Positions 16,001 through 26,700 of a stretch of 64,000 bases of DNA are shown here, one piece after another. A model generated the notes under the pieces. It did no database searches and was not told the origin of the DNA. It was given only the letters and a program-made list of their open reading frames with translations. The position numbers and the translations under genes are program-made. The DNA comes from Saccostrea cucullata (Eukaryota). Location: positions 372,001-436,000 of the forward strand of contig NW_026931531.1 of NCBI RefSeq assembly GCF_032062105.1, in the 5' to 3' direction. Position 1 is the first letter of the stretch; every line of letters begins with the position of its first letter.

Positions 16001-19000
16001 CATCATTTCATTGATTGATTTTTTGGGAGGAGCATTACGCTCTGCAAATAAGTCTTTTGGAGTCTTATTTGCTTTTGTAGATCCAATGGTACACAGGTCA
16101 GCGAATGCATCCTTTGGTTGAGAGGCACTTGTTACTGGAGTGGCAAATGGATCTTCCACTTTGGTTGGCGCTAGAACAGGCTCATCAAACAAGGAGAAGT
16201 TCTGCTGTTGAGATACTTGTGGCTGTTGTTGACCTCCCCATGGAGTGCCCATTGGTTGTTGCCTTTGTGGAACTGGTGGTGGAGCAAGGCCCCCACCAAA
16301 TCCTCCCTACAAGAAAGAAAAAAATACAATTCATACAATACCTGCAATTACATGGAAGACATTGGTTCATGTAATCATAAGACAAGTAAGTACCCCTTGC
16401 TGAGCAGCAAATGGGTTTGCCTGACTGGTTGGTGGAAATGGTGTAGCTGGCTGTCCAAAGGCTCCAAAACCTTGCTGTTGCTGAGGACCACCAAATCCTG
16501 GTTGAGGGCCACCAAAAGGTTGTTGAGAACCACCAAAGCCTTGCTGTTGTTGAGGGCCACCAAACCCTGGTTGAGGACCACCAAATCCTGGCTGAGGACC
16601 ACCAAAACTCTGACCCCCTGGACCAAACAGACTCATGATATCATCTTTCTTCTTAGCAGGGGCAGGTTCACTGCTGAAGAGATTGAGTTCATCCAGGTCA
16701 GAACTGGCAGACTTGCTCTGATTGGTTTGTTCTGCCGGAGTTGATGAGGCTCCCCAGGGGTCAGAAGATGTGGCGGCAGAAGCAGGGGGTGAGGGAATAT
16801 CATCAAATAATGACTCCATCTTGTCGATCTGTTTTATTCCCTGTAAGAATTTTCAAGGTTCATTTGTCAGTAAGAACAAAAGTAGAGGACAGTGAAGTAC
16901 TGATATGAAAGATTAAATTACTAAAATATTCCTCATGCAATAAAAGTAGAAATTAAAAGTAACAACATTTCTTTTTTTGCCCTTTGTTCAAGTTTAATTT
17001 ATTTTATTTTAGTTTAGCTAAATAACACAAAATAATGATATACAATTCCTGCACACTCAGTAATATGTTATTATATAATCATTATGTACATGTACAAGGG
17101 TTGTCCTTAAAAAACAAAGAGCAAATGTTTATAATTTTTTAACCTTGCAACAAATACTAACCAAATTTTGCACAGACATAATACATTCAATGTTCTTTAA
17201 AATTATGAATTTTTAAATATATATCTTTCATATTAATAACATTAGGACGATTTAGGCCGATAAGGCCTTCGGCGCACAAACAAAATTAAGAATAATTTAC
17301 ACATATAACTATTACATTTGCTTTATTTCTTTCGTACTGTGTAATACATTGAACTCAAATTTAAATCACTGAAATTACACAAAGCAAATACAAAATTTCA
17401 TATAAAGTGCTTTAGAATTCAATGAAACATGATTTTCATTGTGTAGGATATTTTGATGAAAATGATGTATAAACATTTATACCGGCGCACATATTACTAA
17501 ATTGTGTTGGATATGGTCTATATACCAAATTGACTACAAATTTCATTTGCAAACAGAAGTGACATTACACACCAATGTGTAATAAAGATAATGCTTAAAT
17601 GGCACAATATTCAAGGAAAGTTTTTCCTTTATACCGAAAATAGTTACTCATTGCAGTATTCAGTTTACAAGCGCAACAATTAGTAACAAGTTATCTCTCT
17701 TTGCAAACAATGTGTATTCTTATATAAATGTAAGGCGATCTACCCCACCACCTAAATTTCAACTGAAATTTGAATTTGGAAAAAACAAGCATCAAAAAAC
17801 AAACGGACACTAGTGAATTTACCATAAGTCCAAATTTGAACAAGAGTGGTCTATCCATAAAAAAATATATTGAAAAAATGTTAAATTTGTAACGCGAGTG
17901 AAGACAAAGAGATCATGATGATTATAAAAGACGTAACCCGCAAATCCTTGCGGGGCCGGTGTACACTTACATTCTTTTTTATTTTTACCTTTTTTCAAGT
18001 TTAATCATGAAACATGAAATGCTTATAAAATTTACTTTTTAAATAACACAAAATAAATTTAATTCCTGCAGAGAGAAATATGTTATTATATAGTCATTAC
18101 GTACATGTCTATTTTTCCTACTTCTACTTTTTATTACCTGTTCAATGCTGACTAACTCTGTCTGTAGAGCTGACAAATCTGTGGGTTCTTTTTCTACGGG
18201 AGCATTGTTTGGTGGAACCTGACAAATATCAATAAGTCAGTATTAAAAGTATAATATATTATTATACATATAATATCGAAATATTTTTCATTTTTGTTTT
18301 TGGTATCTATCTGAATCAACTGATAATTTTCTTTTGGTAGTTATAAATTAATTTACCCAGTACAGTAAAACAGCCTTGTAGCAATCAAGCTTATAATGAA
18401 ATGACACTTAAAACAAGGTGAGGTTCATTCCCATGACTTTTGAATACATTGTGAAATTAGCAGATACATGTGTTTAACAAAGCAATTGTTTGTCACAGGT
18501 ACTATGTACATGTAAGCCTTTTTTATTACTGTATATATATTTGATTCATTTAAAGTTCATTTTATCATAATTTCCATCAGTATCATTATACAAGTGCAAT
18601 GAAATATTGTGTTTTATAAGTACAGAGGTAGACTTTCAGTCAGAATGTTAGTTTTTAATGAAGTGTCATTTTAGTCTGACAGTTGATGTTATCTGAATCA
18701 TTATGTTAATGGGAGATATTACACACATTATAAATTCATGTGATTATGAATATGGGTAGTTGTTAACAACATCTTGGCATCAACTTTATATAAGTTTTGA
18801 AGAATTTTCAAAATAATATACGTAAAAATTTAAAACAAACTGGTGAACTACTGGTAGATAACAAATACAACGTCAAGAAATGAATTTTTGGTAAATTTTG
18901 CCTTCATGGATCTGTAGAGGTATAAAGAAGAGCTTTTACTTGTTTAACTAAACTAATCTTAACTTGTTAAAATAAACTAAGGATAATATACCTGCAAATA

Positions 19001-22000
19001 AAATTTTGAAGCACAGAGCTTATGTACATGGTAAGCACACTTCCTAGTCCTAATAACTAGCCAGAAGTAAAGTTTGCTACTGTAAGCATTGGCTCCCTAA
19101 GTTATGACCTCCTTCACACTTTTAAAAGGCACTTATATTCATAAGCATCCAATGTTTATCAATTACAATATACTAAGTTATGACCTGAACAAAACTCCAA
19201 GAACAGAAGGATGGAGAGACAGATGGGCAGAGTGATTCCTACCCCTCCCCCCTTTCCAACTCAGTTTGCAGGGGCATAATATAATTTAAACATGCAACTA
19301 AAGAGCTCTCAATATTGATATGTTTTTGGTTTAAAACAAGAAGAATCTTTGGAGACAAGATAGACTATTTTTTTTCATTCAAAGCCTTGATTTCATTTAA
19401 GGATAATTTTTTGTGTTAATTATTAATATCAGAGAAAGAGAAAGATAACTAAGACCAATCACACTCAGATTCAGAAAACTAAGTATCAAGAAATTAATAA
19501 AGCATCTATAGCTACTGGAACAAAACTTACTTCATATATAGGCTCATCTACCTCATGCTCACCGGAGTTGTCCTAGTGATTTTATGTGAACAAGTTTACA
19601 AGGAAGCCACGAAAATCTAATACTAAGAATACTAAGGTCATGTACTATGTACCGGTACATGTACTGGATCAACAAACTACATCATTAATCGATCACAATT
19701 GTCTAAAATTTATAACAGCACTCTAGGTCTATATGTCTAACATTAAATGTACATTATCAATTGATTTCATAAAGGCTTCAGAGCTGTGAGAGTTTTACCT
19801 TTGAGTCTGGTTCATCATCTGTGGATGACTCTGTGGTTAATTCACCACCAAGTTGTACAACTGAATCAAAAAGATTATAGAGATTATATCAATGGTTTAA
19901 TATTTTTTATATTAAAAGAAGGAAGAAAAATAGTAAACATATAGGTATCTACCCAAAAAAGTGACCTTTAAAATGAAGGTAAAATTTTAAATCAATCAAT
20001 CCTTCAACTTCCTCTTTATACAAAATTTACAATAATAGATGAGACAATGAATTCTTCAAAATACCAATAAACATTTATTTTACACATAATCATTTATTCT
20101 TCTAACCAAACTGCACAATATGATTGATTGATAATGTTAAATATTCATGAAACAAAAAATTTGAATTTTACAGAATTCTTTCAAGCTAACAAAGATTTCT
20201 TCTGTAACTTCAATCTCTGACGTTGGTGAATCAAATCACTGTTCCAGAACATGCATTGATGAAATTGTCATTGTACGACAAATACTAAATTCATCTCTTG
20301 AATTTTTTTGAGCTGGCATACTAGTTTGGTTTCAATAAATAATAACAAGCTCAAGGGAAGAACCACCTCCATTAGCTTTAAGATGGCCATTCATCAAAAA
20401 TTCATACAACACCCTATGCAGTCTAAACATATTTGGTGGTTTAAATCCCTAGATGCATCACTGATGCAAGTTTGGCCCAAACATAAATAAATATTATACT
20501 GGTCGCTCTTCTGGAACGTACAGGTCAGACACAGCATAGTCTGTATCTTAAATTGTATCACAAAATTAAGTCTACCCTAAGGCCTACATGTACCTTCTCA
20601 GGAACAGACTAGCTCCTAGCACATTAACATCAAAATTTGGTCAATCACCTGGAAAATGTTGGTCGAATGCAGAAACTCCTACCAGTCTGGTAGTATCCAT
20701 CCCTACATGTGATATCCATGCAAGTTTAGTTATGACAGACCTAATACAATGAACTTAAAGGGAAATGAGAATATTGGACCTGACCAAAAAAACTTTTAAC
20801 CCAGACAGACAGTGATAAAGCTCCTCCCTATGGTGACCGATTGTTAACCAGGGAATGACTATTGTGTTTGGACTGCTTACCATTGTTTGGCATTTCTTAC
20901 CAGGGAATGACTATTGTTTTTGGACTGCTTACCATTGCTTGGCCTTTCTTCTTTCGGTTTGTCATCTGTCTGTTGTTTGGCAGCCTCCATCTCTTTCTTC
21001 TTGTTTTCATACACCACTTGGAAGAGGTCTCTCAGGGTCAACACCACATTTTCTGCCTACAATATTTTTTGAAATTTCATAAAATTCATTTACCGGGGTA
21101 TTTATAGAAAATTGGAGTGACGTCTTCTTCAAACTGTGTTAGAAGTACTCCAAGCAAGCAAGAACTTACAGACAGTGCTTGATATCATGGAAAAGAACAA
21201 AATTGCAACACTTACCGCTTTTTCTGTTTTGATTCCAAAGAATTTATGAGTTCTATCCTCTGTCCCAAATATATAACCAAATGCTCGTCTGTCACTCACA
21301 TCCCGAGAAATGAAAGAGATCTTATGAACAGGATGATGGTGCAATAATGTCTGAAATACAAGGTCTTTGGATGAAGTAATGCAGAGAATTTAAAATGCAC
21401 CATTACTCATAGAAATTTAGGGAGGTAAATAATTTTTGTGGAACACAATTTTTTGCTGTTTTTGAGGGTAGAGAGAGCATGATGATAGTACTCACAGCTG
21501 TTCTTAGGTCAATGAGTTTGATCCCCTCCTCTGAAATGTTAATTATAATTCTCTGCTTGTGTTGACCAGCAGCCTTGACCGCCATTTTCTGAGCCAGAAT
21601 GGTTTCCTGACACATCCTGTCCCCCCTGGCGTCGGCGACATCGCTCACTCCAATCAGCTTGGCATTGAACACCACGCCCTCACCTTTAAATCGGAACGGG
21701 TCATTCCTAGGATCTGCATTAAGAAAATGTAAAATTAATATCTGTGTCAAATACATACAGGAATAACTTTCATACTTCAATTTCACAATCCTCATTGCCG
21801 TATTTATTTACATTCCAGATTTTCATAGTACATAATTGTAGACAACACATTTCCTTTGAACCAAAACAACTTATTGTTTCCTGTCCCACTGGATTTATTT
21901 CAAACACCAGCCTAACAAAATCCTTCTCTTCTATTTCCCTTTTTATGAGTTCAGCTAATATTCATACTCAGGTAACAATTAGAAGCTATCAAGTACAACA

Positions 22001-23753
22001 AACAATTATCATCTTTGGTTATCTTACCTGTACTTATACTTCCAGTATCTGACTGCAAACGAAGAAATGAAGACATATTGATACAAACCACCTCCAACAG
22101 TGATTATTTCACTCTACATTCTCACTGAGCAATACTTACAGTGTATAAGTTTTATATATTAAACAAACAAAGTATGTAAATCACCTGCTTTAAAGGAAGT
22201 TTTTCTTCTTATTCAGAATTATCACAAGATTGTCATTCTATCGTTAATAGTCTAAGGTTCATTTTATATTATACGATGTCTAGTCATCTTTATACTTTAC
22301 GTGTACAAGTAACTGTCCTTGTTGCAAGTCTTAGTGTGTGGTAAGTTTCTGCAATTTCCTAAGTGATATGTAATCAATTTTGTTTGTTTTGCTTTGGTCA
22401 TTTACTTGTCAGGGGCATGGAAAGATTTATTAATTACTGAACAGACATATCTAAATTCCTCTACAGGAGGTTTATGCTATAGTTTAAGTTACCTACCTAG
22501 GGATGGTTTTTCTTATAGTTTAGTTTACCTACCTACAGGAGGTTTTGTAACCTAAGTTATTTACCCATCGAAGGTTCCTGTAATAGTCTAGATAACCTAC
22601 CTACAGGTTTCTGTAATAGTTACCTACCTACAGGAGGTTTCTGTAATAGTTACCTACCTACAGGAGGTTTCTGTAATAGTTACCTACCTACAGGAGGTTT
22701 CTGTAATAGTTACCTACCTACAGGAGGTTGTTGTAATAGTTACCTACCTACAGGAGGTTTCTGTAATAGTTACCTATGTTACATGAGGTTTATGTAATAG
22801 TTTACCTACAGGATGTTTATGTAATAGTTACCTACCTATATGATGTTTTTTGTTATAGTTACCTACCTACAGGAGGTTTCTGTAATAGTTACCTACCTAC
22901 AGGAGGTTTATGTAATAGTTCCCTACCTACAGGAGGTTGTTGTAATGGTTATCTACCTACAGGAGGTTTATGTAATAGTTACCTATCTACATGAGGTTTA
23001 TGTAATAGTTACCTACCTATAGGAGGTTTCTGTAATAGTTACCTATCTACATGAGGTTTTTTGTAATAGTTACCTACCTACAGGAAGTTTATGTAATAGT
23101 TACCTATCTACATGAGGTTTATGTAATAGTTACCTACCTACAGGTGGTTGTTGTAATAATTACCTACCTACAGGAGGTTTATGTAATATTAACCTACCTA
23201 CAGGAGGTTTTTGTAATAGTTATCTACCTACAGGAGGTTTATGTAATAGTCTAGGTTACCTTCCTACAGGGGGTTCCTGTAATAGTTAGGTTACCTACCT
23301 ACAGGAAGTTTCTGTAATAGTTACCTACCTACAGGAGGTTTCTGTCATAGTTACCTACCTACAGGAGGTTTTTGTAACAGTCTATTTTACATGTACCTAC
23401 AGGAGGTTTTTGTATTATTTACCTGTCTACAGGAGATTTTTGACAGTCCTTTTTTGACCTACTAACACGTTGTTGTTTTAATAGTTTTAGTTACTTACCT
23501 ACAGGAGGTTTTTTGACGGCCCGTTTTTGTTGTGGCGTGCTGTCTGTTTTAGTAACCTACCTACAGAAGTTTTTTTTTGACGGCCCTTTTTTGTTGTGGT
23601 GTGCGTCTATTATAGTCTAGGTTACCTACCTACAGGAGGTTTTTTGACGGCCCGTTTTTGTTGTGGTGTGCTGTCTGTGGGAGTGGTGGTGGTTGTGGCA
23701 GCTGCTGGTTCTGATACGGAGGTCTCAGGAGTGGATGTGGTTTCTTCAGACAT
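13060..23753 (-). CDS. DAB: Disabled (DAB1/DAB2-like) PTB-domain endocytic/signalling adaptor. Coding exons: 23630-23753, (22028-22048 micro-exon), 21496-21713, 21216-21350, 20933-21056, 19799-19860, 19531-19572, 18138-18218, 16394-16840, 15116-16306, 14127-14192, 13060-13095
   Basis: PTB domain [29 protein letters not shown]...[24 protein letters not shown]...[27 protein letters not shown], as in DAB1/2. It is followed by many DPF motifs, DPW, NPF and a proline-rich region. Exons join in phase with GT-AG boundaries; the small exons are less certain. Confidence 0.93.
17095..18060. mobile_element. Non-autonomous Tc1/mariner-like element, copy 2 (right TIR missing), in a Dab intron
   Basis: Starts TA-CAAGGGTTGTCC and is colinear with 306-1310 (e.g. 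AATACTAACCAAATTTTGCA, AATGTAAGGCGATCT, GTACACTTACATTCTTTT). Confidence 0.75.
18363..18531. mobile_element. Small TA-flanked MITE (CAGTAA..TTACTG, pogo/Tigger-like ends)
   Basis: TA-CAGTAAAAC ... TTATTACTG-TA. Confidence 0.45.
22460..23640. repeat. 30-bp minisatellite (~35 copies, GTTACCTACCTACAGGAGGTTTCTGTAATA) derived from the Dab first coding exon/intron junction
   Basis: The unit is visible directly. Its reverse complement contains AAACCTCCTGTAG|GTAGGTAAC, identical to the real donor at 23630. Confidence 0.95.
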
Positions 23754-26700
23754 TCTGGTGGTGTATACTGTCTTAATGGAGTAGTCTTACAATGATGTTC
23801 AATCAATGACAGGCAAAAATGTCAGCACTACAAAAGATATAACAACAAGAAATTCAGGTAAAATATTTAGTTTTCTTAAAATCTCTGATCAGAATTCCAG
23901 ACAATGCATGGTTGGGATTGCCTGTCTGTAAACTCAAAAAAATAACCAATTTATCTTCATGCTATCTTGGCTTGCACTTTTATATTAAATCATTTTACAA
24001 CCAATACCAAATGAGGATACAGATCAAAAAATACCTATAACCATACAGATTTATAGACAGTGGGAAACTCCCAATACCTATCTTTCAAAACAAGATAAAA
24101 ATACTGTATTAAGCAGCAATTTTACATACTACACTAAATCATAAAAGCCCATGTTTTGATAATTATATGTTTATGTACATCTTCAGGAGATGTTCATCTT
24201 ATACTTTTTGTAAATATTTCTAAAATGTTAACATACTGCATCTGCTATAATATGGGCAGTGACCCTCATTTTAGTATGTAGAGCATGGCCCTTAATTAAA
24301 TCTACAATACATTCACCTCCATTCAACAAATCTAGGCATGGGTAATAAAGATATATCACTGTGAACTGCACTCCTTCCCAAATTAATTCAAGCTGAAACA
24401 TGACAACATCCCAGCATTATCTTAAATAACCTAAATTACAAAGATAAAACATTTTATGTTGTCCAACCCCTATTGTCCAACATTGCCTCAAATAGCACCT
24501 GCTTTATTTAGTTAAAAAAAACTCTGAAAATCCACCTCTCATCTTTTTCTCCTAATTAAAGAAAAAAACAGACAAACCTCCCACTAAATCCTCCTCCCCA
24601 CGTATCACAATAACGACCTTTACTAGGGTACCATACAGCTCATTATCTGTACTATCTATATAAAATATCCGTCAATAAAATCTCAGATAAAATACCCTAG
24701 TCTTATGATGAGGTATAGCTATAAAGCTAACACTGTTAGTTTCAGTATGTACCTGTATACAAATTACCCCCGCGAGGATCAAAGGTCCAGACTCCCTGTT
24801 AATATTTATCTCTCACTAGATTTCTCCCACTGAAGGCTATTGGGTATAGATACATACACTGCAAGTGCTCACAAATTGTTAAATGATCTTAATGCATAGT
24901 ATTACATAATCTCCACTTCACAAGGTAGTAGCCTTCTCATGGGGGGGAACACTTAGTCACAGAGTATAACAATGTAAGGCTGCAGCTGATTCTACGCAGT
25001 TAATGCTTTTGCTTTGATCAAAGAGGAAATCTTAACAGTAATTCCATGTTAATTAGCAAATGATGAAATGCATGTTCTTAAAATATGTTTTCAATATTTT
25101 GATGCAACCAGTATTTTCATTTAGATATGCATTTGGAATTTTAACTCTTACCTATCGGTGCATAATACCAGCAATCCTAAATAATCTAAGACTCATCTTA
25201 AAATCTTAACATTTCCTTATACATGTTCCTATACCTTAATTCTTTGAAAGCAGTGCATTTAAAAGAAATCTATCGAGCAGTAAATAATCAGGGACAAAAT
25301 ATATGGAAAATCCAAAAATTAAATACAAAATGAATTAATCAGCTTGAGTTAAAATATGCAACTTATGCATCAAAACAGATTTAAAAATAAATATCCACCA
25401 CATTTCCCACTCTTTCCTCTGAAGTGCACTGAAAATTCTCTGAAGCGCATAAAAATTCTGCAGGTTTACAAAAATGTGTCAAGAGCCTCTCTGCTATATA
25501 ACCACATTAATTCAGGATGTCATAAATATGGATATGGACATCAAAATTAAATGGGAATTAAAAAAAGTAATAAATATTAACCATAACAATTGTTGAAATG
25601 GGGATTAATCTGTTAATTATCTTTTCTGTACATTCCTAATGTGATTTAAAATCTTTTTTTCTCTCTTAATGATAAATCGTACATGAGTGATTTCACAGTT
25701 ACACCTCAAAACACAAATACGTCAGCTGATGATTATCCTCCCCGTTTATGTCATGCAATTCTCGTTAACAATTACCCTCTCACCTCAGTTAAATATTACT
25801 GCACATACTACATCAATCACCTTAATATATGTGGCCCTTGACAAAGAAGAATACATGTATCACTATGACAAGTTTTCTAACAAAAAAATATATAAAAAGT
25901 TATTAAAAACATTCTATATCAATATTATGAGAAGTATTTTTTCATTTCATTCGGTAAATGATTCCTGCATATAGTTTTCCTCATAAAAATGTTACAAAAA
26001 GATTTGATAAATTACAAGAATTAATTAGTTTTTTTTTTACTCATCAAACACTTTAAACATTTTATCAAGTTGAAGTACTTTGTCATAATCATCCACCTCC
26101 GGATTAACAGATACAAAACAAAAGAACATGTATGTGCATAAATTATGCAGTAACAGCTACAATTTGAAATCTAAATCAAGCTATGCAAAAACTGAAATAT
26201 TTTTTACCCGGTAAATGGTTTTTTATCCAAAGTTCCATGATAGAGGCCAATAAATATACACATGTATTTCATGACAGCAAACATTCTTTTCTCACTATTA
26301 GCTGTAGTTCATTAACTAGCTGGTGTTTAAAAATCAGAATGGACATCTATATATCCTAATTTTTTGTATTATACTTTTGATAGTGCAAATTCCAATTTCA
26401 ATTTTCAGAAAAGAAGAGAAAGAAAGAGAGTTATGGTGACAAATATCTCATCGTATGCCTAATTTCTTATAAGTAAAATAAAATAACCCATTATTTCAAA
26501 AACTGCTTAATTTTAAAAACATGCCAAACATGTAACATATAATAACAATTAGTTAAAAAACTTGTAGTACATTTTCTGTCCCAAGTCCCAACCTCCTTTC
26601 ACATCCAACTCAAATGGGATGTCATATATAACAAAATGGGGAAAAAAGTCAATCTGTATCAATTCTTTAAAATAATTCTCAAGAAAACATTTGAAAATGG

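What the first reader, a model, noticed from the sequence alone, without database searches (positions are those of the whole stretch)
22460..23640. About 35 tandem copies of the Dab 5' splice site directly downstream of the real one
On the transcribed strand a typical 30-bp unit reads TATTACAG AAACCTCCTGTAG GTAGGTAAC: the last 13 nt of the exon plus the donor, often preceded by an AG. Units nearest the exon keep up to ~50 bp of exon sequence, and distal ones decay. Each unit is a decoy donor, an AG|GT recursive-splice-like site and a potential 13-nt micro-exon. Reading through the true donor meets TAA at once (GTA GGT AGG TAA), so mis-selection would give NMD substrates. The array could act as a U1 snRNP sink or a length-polymorphic expression tuner.
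Basis: partly seen in the sequence, partly recalled or inferred. Interest (0 to 1): 0.7.

Follow-up and report, generated by a model that had tools for sequence, protein, structure and literature searches.

The report
Splice-donor minisatellite in Dab intron
The end of the first coding exon of a Disabled (Dab) gene, with its splice signal, is repeated 34 more times into the next intron, but assembled transcripts from a close relative are spliced only at the first signal, so this is likely a silent repeat of a kind already known from human and lancelet genes and common in this genome.

Summary
The array is real: 34 copies of the exon end plus donor follow the true donor (exon ends at 23630, minus strand); 27 keep GT and 20 match the true donor at -3..+6. 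The gene is Dab (PDB Dab2 PTB, E 6e-18). RNA contigs of 7 of 7 runs laid (5 studies, a close relative) join 23630 to 21713 only; none uses a copy, a recursive site or a 13-nt micro-exon. Contigs drop rare isoforms, so low leakage is not excluded. Donor positions are no better conserved than the rest of the unit (P 0.57), and there is no distal decay. The layout is known: human F7, CBS, 6-16, LMNB2 and lancelet 'mirages'; in F7 only the first donor is used, whatever the copy number. This scan has noted it about 50 times in at least 26 genomes. In this genome it is common: 8 donor arrays on this contig; genome-wide, donor 8-mers recur at minisatellite spacing more than control 8-mers (357 and 390 matches versus 3-131). 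A held-out 1 Mb had none (0 of 38 arrays). Verdict: ordinary, likely neutral; the possible donor bias is the only open point.

The parts
23630..23827 (-). First coding exon of Dab (ATG at 23753-23751); its last 13-49 nt are the exon part of the repeat unit
   Evidence: RNA contigs cover it and join it to the PTB exon; translation
23621..23632 (-). Authentic 5' splice site, GT at 23629-23628; in-frame TAA at 23624-23622 on read-through
   Evidence: Joint 23630 to 21713 in 7 of 7 runs
23427..23629 (-). Three long proximal units (69, 62, 72 bp) keeping 47, 49 and about 31 exon nt; likely the founding duplications
23490..23501 (-). Copy 2 donor (GT at 23498): best U1 match of all sites, 9 of 11 against 8 plus one wobble for the true donor; the likeliest leak site
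   Evidence: no joint from it
22461..23426 (-). 31 short units of 27-38 bp (mostly 30 bp): 9 intron nt, a short spacer and 13 exon nt
21714..23629 (-). 1916-nt GT-AG intron that carries the array and is removed whole
21496..21713 (-). Next exon, start of the Dab PTB domain
   Evidence: PDB Dab2 E 6e-18, Dab1 E 3e-15; Pfam DAB2_SBM E 1.2e-5, below its cut-off

Best explanation
This is a minisatellite whose first unit spans the exon-intron boundary of Dab; the transcripts seen are spliced at the first donor, and the 34 copies are likely silent, neutral pseudo-donors removed with the intron. Shown: the array, its unit structure, the normal splice, and the stop on read-through. Inferred history: a 62-72 bp tandem duplication of the exon end and intron start; deletions that shortened the unit to 36-38 and then 30 bp; then expansion and partial homogenisation by slippage or unequal exchange. 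Inferred splicing: the most upstream donor wins because it closes a normal-sized exon and is transcribed first, as tested for F7. Rare use of a copy would add the TAA after codon 43 and would likely be degraded, so the array costs little and is tolerated.
For: One joint only (23630 to 21713) in 7 of 7 runs from 5 studies, while a common alternative exon of the same gene (19572-19797) is resolved in 2 of 4 runs. Departures from the true site: 0.080 per cell at 7 donor positions against 0.096 at 15 others, Fisher P 0.57; GT itself 0.125 (32 of 34 copies, two with indels dropped). Nested 69/62/72, 36-38 and 30 bp units. Same layout in F7, 6-16, CBS, LMNB2, PDGF (PMC1557585) and lancelet Adh3, globins, TnC, PGBD5. 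Seven more donor arrays in other exons on this contig and at least 15 unit families genome-wide for one 8-mer, so Dab is not singled out.
Against: The RNA data are assembled contigs that drop rare forms, come from a relative with about 94-96% identity in three of the coding exons, and 5 of 7 runs are only guessed to be RNA. NMD would hide mis-spliced products. In 6-16 and CBS the nearest copies are used (PMC1557585 introduction), and copy 2 here matches U1 better than the true site. The F7 mechanism was shown in mammalian cells, not in this animal. Units are not independent, so the conservation test has low power. The 30-bp unit also occurs in the relative's runs, so the array has persisted for some time.
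Confidence: 0.8

Rival explanations
1. Leaky, length-dependent tuner: the nearest copies (1, 2) take a few per cent of splicing, the products are degraded, and longer alleles lower Dab output, as in ABCA7.
For: ABCA7: the second unit's donor gives an NMD-sensitive product, and VNTR length correlates with exon skipping and lower expression (PMC5954066 abstract and section 21). Copy 2 has the best U1 match. Stops lie 61 nt or more upstream of any copy junction. A neighbouring donor array has 112 units here and 37 on a 95% identical second contig.
Against: No such joint in 7 of 7 runs. In F7, 1 to 12 units gave the same splicing. In ABCA7 the one-unit retention did not vary with length. No second Dab allele in the assembly.
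Confidence: 0.13
2. Selected device: U1 snRNP sink, recursive-splicing ladder or source of 13-nt micro-exons.
For: 26 of 34 copies read AG|GT and 10 of 34 have an AG 13 nt upstream.
Against: Weak acceptor context; intron only 1.9 kb; the micro-exon shifts the frame and stops after residue 47; no selective conservation of donors; no joints; similar arrays sit behind unrelated exons.
Confidence: 0.05
3. Assembly or sequencing artefact.
For: Only one assembly holds the full array; no long read was laid across it.
Against: Units differ from each other in a structured way (83% match), and pieces of the unit occur in 3 independent public runs (X4, X10, X14).
Confidence: 0.02

Closest known systems
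Human F7 intron 7 37-bp VNTR (Borensztajn et al. 2006, PMC1557585; read parts 1, 3 and 4 of 6: abstract, introduction, part of results, start of discussion)
   Same: First unit spans the exon-intron boundary; identical donors repeat downstream; only the first is used.
   Different: 5-9 copies with 4 exon nt each, against 34 copies with 13-49 exon nt; F7 is proven polymorphic and tested in minigenes, this one is not.
Human 6-16 (25 pseudo-sites), CBS intron 13 (15-20), LMNB2 (10-15 x 100 bp), PDGF intron 4 (16-18 x 81 bp), as summarised in the PMC1557585 introduction; original papers not read
   Same: Same layout and similar copy numbers.
   Different: In 6-16 and CBS two nearby copies are also used; no such use was seen here.
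Lancelet 'mirage' minisatellites: Adh3, globins BflGb6 and BflGb9, TnC, PGBD5 (PMC3087553 passages of section 16; PMC3902484 one passage)
   Same: Invertebrate tandem duplications of exon-intron boundaries with AG/GT signals, homogenised inside and worn at the edges, no effect on normal splicing.
   Different: Reported gene by gene in lancelets, on 5' and 3' boundaries; origin stated to be unclear. Here many occur in one genome, with a possible excess of donors.
Human ABCA7 intron 18 VNTR (PMC5954066; abstract and section 21 read)
   Same: A cryptic donor one unit into the VNTR gives an out-of-frame, NMD-sensitive product.
   Different: Length there correlates with exon skipping and expression; nothing of the kind is shown here.

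Membership tests
Exon-boundary minisatellite (F7-type, 'mirage') | Tandem array whose first unit spans a real exon-intron boundary | tested here: met
   boundary confirmed by RNA contigs
Exon-boundary minisatellite (F7-type, 'mirage') | Splice-site sequence reiterated in the intron | tested here: met
   27 of 34 keep GT; 20 of 34 identical at -3..+6
Exon-boundary minisatellite (F7-type, 'mirage') | Normal mRNA made from the authentic site | tested here: met
   7 of 7 runs, contig level, close relative; rare forms not visible
Exon-boundary minisatellite (F7-type, 'mirage') | Copy number varies between alleles (VNTR) | tested here: inconclusive
   Only one Dab copy in the assembly; a neighbouring donor array differs, 112 against 37 units
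Recursive splice site | AG|GT junction | tested here: met
   26 of 34 copies
Recursive splice site | Functional acceptor context (T-rich tract) before the AG | tested here: not met
   Mean T 0.24 (0.12-0.35) against 0.29-0.65 at six confirmed acceptors; small sample
Recursive splice site | Intermediates joining the upstream exon to the intronic AG (feature recalled) | tested here: inconclusive
   None in contigs; needs nascent RNA reads
Micro-exon | Included in mRNA, usually frame-preserving (feature recalled) | tested here: not met
   13 nt shifts the frame, stop after residue 47; no inserted letters at the joint, table 5c empty
Length-dependent splicing or expression VNTR (ABCA7-type) | Array length correlates with isoform ratio or expression | not testable with these tools
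   Needs genotypes and RNA from the same individuals

The most novel reading that the evidence does not exclude
Splice donors are preferred seeds of minisatellites in this genome: arrays that start in an exon end and run into the intron are several times more frequent than chance, cluster in gene-dense regions, and lack a matching excess at acceptors. That would point to a mutational process tied to 5' splice sites, would give hundreds or more natural, length-variable tests of donor choice (Dab among them), and would make the stated open question of how 'mirages' arise testable genome-wide.
Probability: 0.35. Interest if true: 0.55.

Novelty: new member of a known kind. Interest (0 to 1): 0.27.

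Why it matters
As a single locus it matters little: it is one more example of a known repeat type, with no sign of function. It is a fair natural reporter for first-donor choice outside mammals, since a better U1 match 131 nt downstream is not seen in use. The wider observation may matter more: such arrays are frequent in this genome and may favour donors. If a full annotated census confirms that, it bears on how these repeats arise and on proposed intron gain from them. They are also a practical trap for gene prediction and read mapping.

Tried and rejected
Dispersed satellite or transposon origin: rejected, the unit occurs only here. Second Dab copy or allele: none found. RNA structure masking the copies: 23330-23700 folds no better than shuffles, z -0.38. 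Coding potential of the array: longest stop-free stretch 35 codons. Distal decay: rejected. Enrichment on the contig, first automatic test with a strict acceptor rule: 3 of 51 arrays against a null mean of 1.45, not significant. Second test, relaxed after looking at the candidates, periods up to 100, Dab left out: 7 of 41 against 0.96, 0 of 500 nulls; one of the 7 (contig 277351) is probably false, and the rule misses Dab's own donor. The same rule on 1.02 Mb of five other contigs: 0 of 38 against 0.40, and none by eye, so the local excess did not replicate there. One acceptor 8-mer showed no excess over its control (90 against 131 matches). No perfect telomere runs on the contig. Literature searches for a genome-wide survey or a mollusc case gave 0 papers; one search listed only the two lancelet papers as relevant; the library lacks most subscription journals. 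The species was not determined; 'rock oyster' comes from earlier notes only.

Full report
Observation. On the minus strand, an exon ends at 23630 and is followed by an array down to 22461. TRF reports period 30 x 28, period 67 x 3 and period 36 x 2.4. Anchoring on the 22-nt core gave 33 sites; two worn ones were added by hand, for 35 with the true donor. Of the 34 copies, 27 keep GT, 26 read AG|GT, 20 equal the true site at -3..+6, and 10 have an AG before the 13-nt exon piece. Copies 1-3 keep 47, 49 and about 31 exon nt. There is no decay with distance (rho 0.08, P 0.65). The core occurs nowhere else in the window or, as an exact match, in the genome, and the locus is single.

Gene. The next exon (21713-21496) encodes the start of a Dab PTB domain: PDB Dab2 E 6e-18, Dab1 E 3e-15. 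The exon before the array holds the ATG at 23753; read-through stops after 43 codons. The species was not determined. Earlier notes on this genome call it a rock oyster, which I did not test.

RNA. Of 24 listed runs I laid 7, from 5 studies; 2 are on record as RNA and 5 are guessed. All are contigs of a close relative, with shared differences of about 4-6% in three of the coding exons. All 7 join 23630 to 21713 and show no other joint in this intron and no inserted letters. An alternative exon further down the gene is resolved in 2 of the 4 runs that covered it, so common isoforms are visible; rare ones are not. Low-depth pieces of the 30-bp unit in X4, X10 and X14 show that the relative carries the repeat too.

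Tests of the proposed functions. Donor positions depart from the true site at 0.080 per cell against 0.096 for other positions (P 0.57; 32 copies, two with indels dropped). The AGs in the array have T-poor upstream context compared with six confirmed acceptors. A 13-nt micro-exon would stop after residue 47. Any exon extension stops after residue 43, 61 nt or more before the new junction. That NMD would remove such RNA is inferred from general knowledge; a stop this close to the start may partly escape (recalled). Copy 2 is the best U1 match, yet no joint from it was seen. The region has no unusual fold.

Known cases. PMC1557585 (parts 1, 3, 4 of 6 read) describes the F7 intron 7 VNTR with the same layout. 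Only the most upstream donor is used, copy numbers from 1 to 12 made no difference, and only a perfect consensus competed. It lists 6-16, CBS, LMNB2 and PDGF; in the first two, nearby copies are also used. PMC3087553 (passages) and PMC3902484 (one passage) describe lancelet 'mirages' that do not disturb splicing and whose origin is called unclear. PMC5954066 (abstract, section 21) shows ABCA7, where length does affect splicing and expression. Supplements were not consulted. This scan holds 50 notes with the same words in at least 26 genomes, two of them like this one in this genome; these are unchecked leads.

How common here. On 487 kb of this contig TRF found 51 arrays (period 12 or more, 4 or more copies). 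By eye 8 are donor arrays, Dab included, and 2 are acceptor arrays. Of the 9 other flanking exons, 3 pass Pfam cut-offs (GKRP_SIS_N, Eaf7, EGF_laminin), 2 hit weakly (RNB, RTC_insert) and 4 have no hit. Automatic tests were mixed: 3 of 51 against 1.45; after retuning, 7 of 41 against 0.96; held out, 0 of 38 against 0.40 on 1.02 Mb that is poorer in exon-like sites.

Genome-wide pattern counts (an 8-mer three times at 30-38 bp spacing): two donor 8-mers gave 357 and 390 matches against 3 and 17 for their reversed controls. A scrambled 8-mer and its reverse gave 40 and 31, an acceptor 8-mer and its reverse 90 and 131. Single 8-mer rates for donors and their reversed controls were similar, 39 against 30 and 30 against 24 per Mb. 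Matches overlap, and 98 of the first 100 listed rows of the second donor come from one array, so families are the fairer count. Up to contig 10051 I counted 15 families for the first donor 8-mer, 7 for the acceptor 8-mer (2.5 times more frequent) and 2 for the scrambled one (2.7 times rarer): about a three- to five-fold excess, on small numbers. All 6 arrays inspected begin at the end of an exon-like frame; one is a malate dehydrogenase-like exon (Pfam E 0.003, below cut-off). A neighbouring donor array has 112 units here and 37 on a 95% identical second contig, while another pair has 23 and 23.

Mechanism and verdict. Shown: array, gene, normal splice, stop on read-through, no preferential donor conservation, many similar arrays. 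Inferred: origin by tandem duplication, shortening and expansion; first-donor choice as in F7; decay of rare mis-spliced RNA; neutrality (0.8). A leaky length-dependent effect (0.13) and a selected device (0.05) are not excluded but have no support here. It is a new member of a known kind, interest 0.27. The one lead worth following is the possible genome-wide donor bias; two searches found no paper on it, but the library is partial.

Noticed in passing
window 20847-20950 (minus): A second Dab donor is duplicated: a 52-bp unit x2 copies the donor at 20932 to 20880. RNA contigs use the first in 4 of 4 runs.
   Followed up: partly
window 22028-22048 (minus): Candidate 21-nt in-frame micro-exon with good splice signals in the same intron; not included in any of 7 runs, and the relative differs at nearby signal bases.
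   Followed up: partly
window 19572-19797 intron and 23828-24577 intron: Dab has an alternatively spliced short exon ending at 19571 (X1, X18) and at least two alternative upstream exons joined to 23827.
   Followed up: no
G000 C13668:14983-18444 (L045) and C6343 (L196:3802-4958): 31-bp donor array with 112 units on one contig and 37 on a 95% identical second contig, likely two alleles.
   Followed up: partly
L027:4288-4756 and L027:7902-8440: Two nearby exons, the first Eaf7/MRGBP-like and the second likely of the same gene, each carry their own donor array (37 bp and 34 bp units).
   Followed up: partly
L003:8027-8625; L009:8482-9044; L011:248-965; L036:4131-4548: Donor arrays behind exons of a glucokinase-regulator-like gene, an RNB-domain gene and two unnamed genes on the same contig.
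   Followed up: partly
L047:5196-5481; L042:164-1021: Acceptor-type arrays before an EGF-like exon and an RTC-insert-like exon.
   Followed up: partly
G000 C9127:275917-282515 and onward: A 38-bp donor-like array at least 6.6 kb long; flanking exon not checked.
   Followed up: no
G000 C13668 against C14000, C7000, C100, C23000, C18000: Junction arrays cluster on this gene-dense contig (10 of 51 arrays) and were not found in 1.02 Mb elsewhere; unexplained.
   Followed up: partly
window 16464-16608 (minus): Coding tandem repeat (Gly-Phe-Gly-Gly-Pro-Gln type) in the large Dab exon.
   Followed up: no
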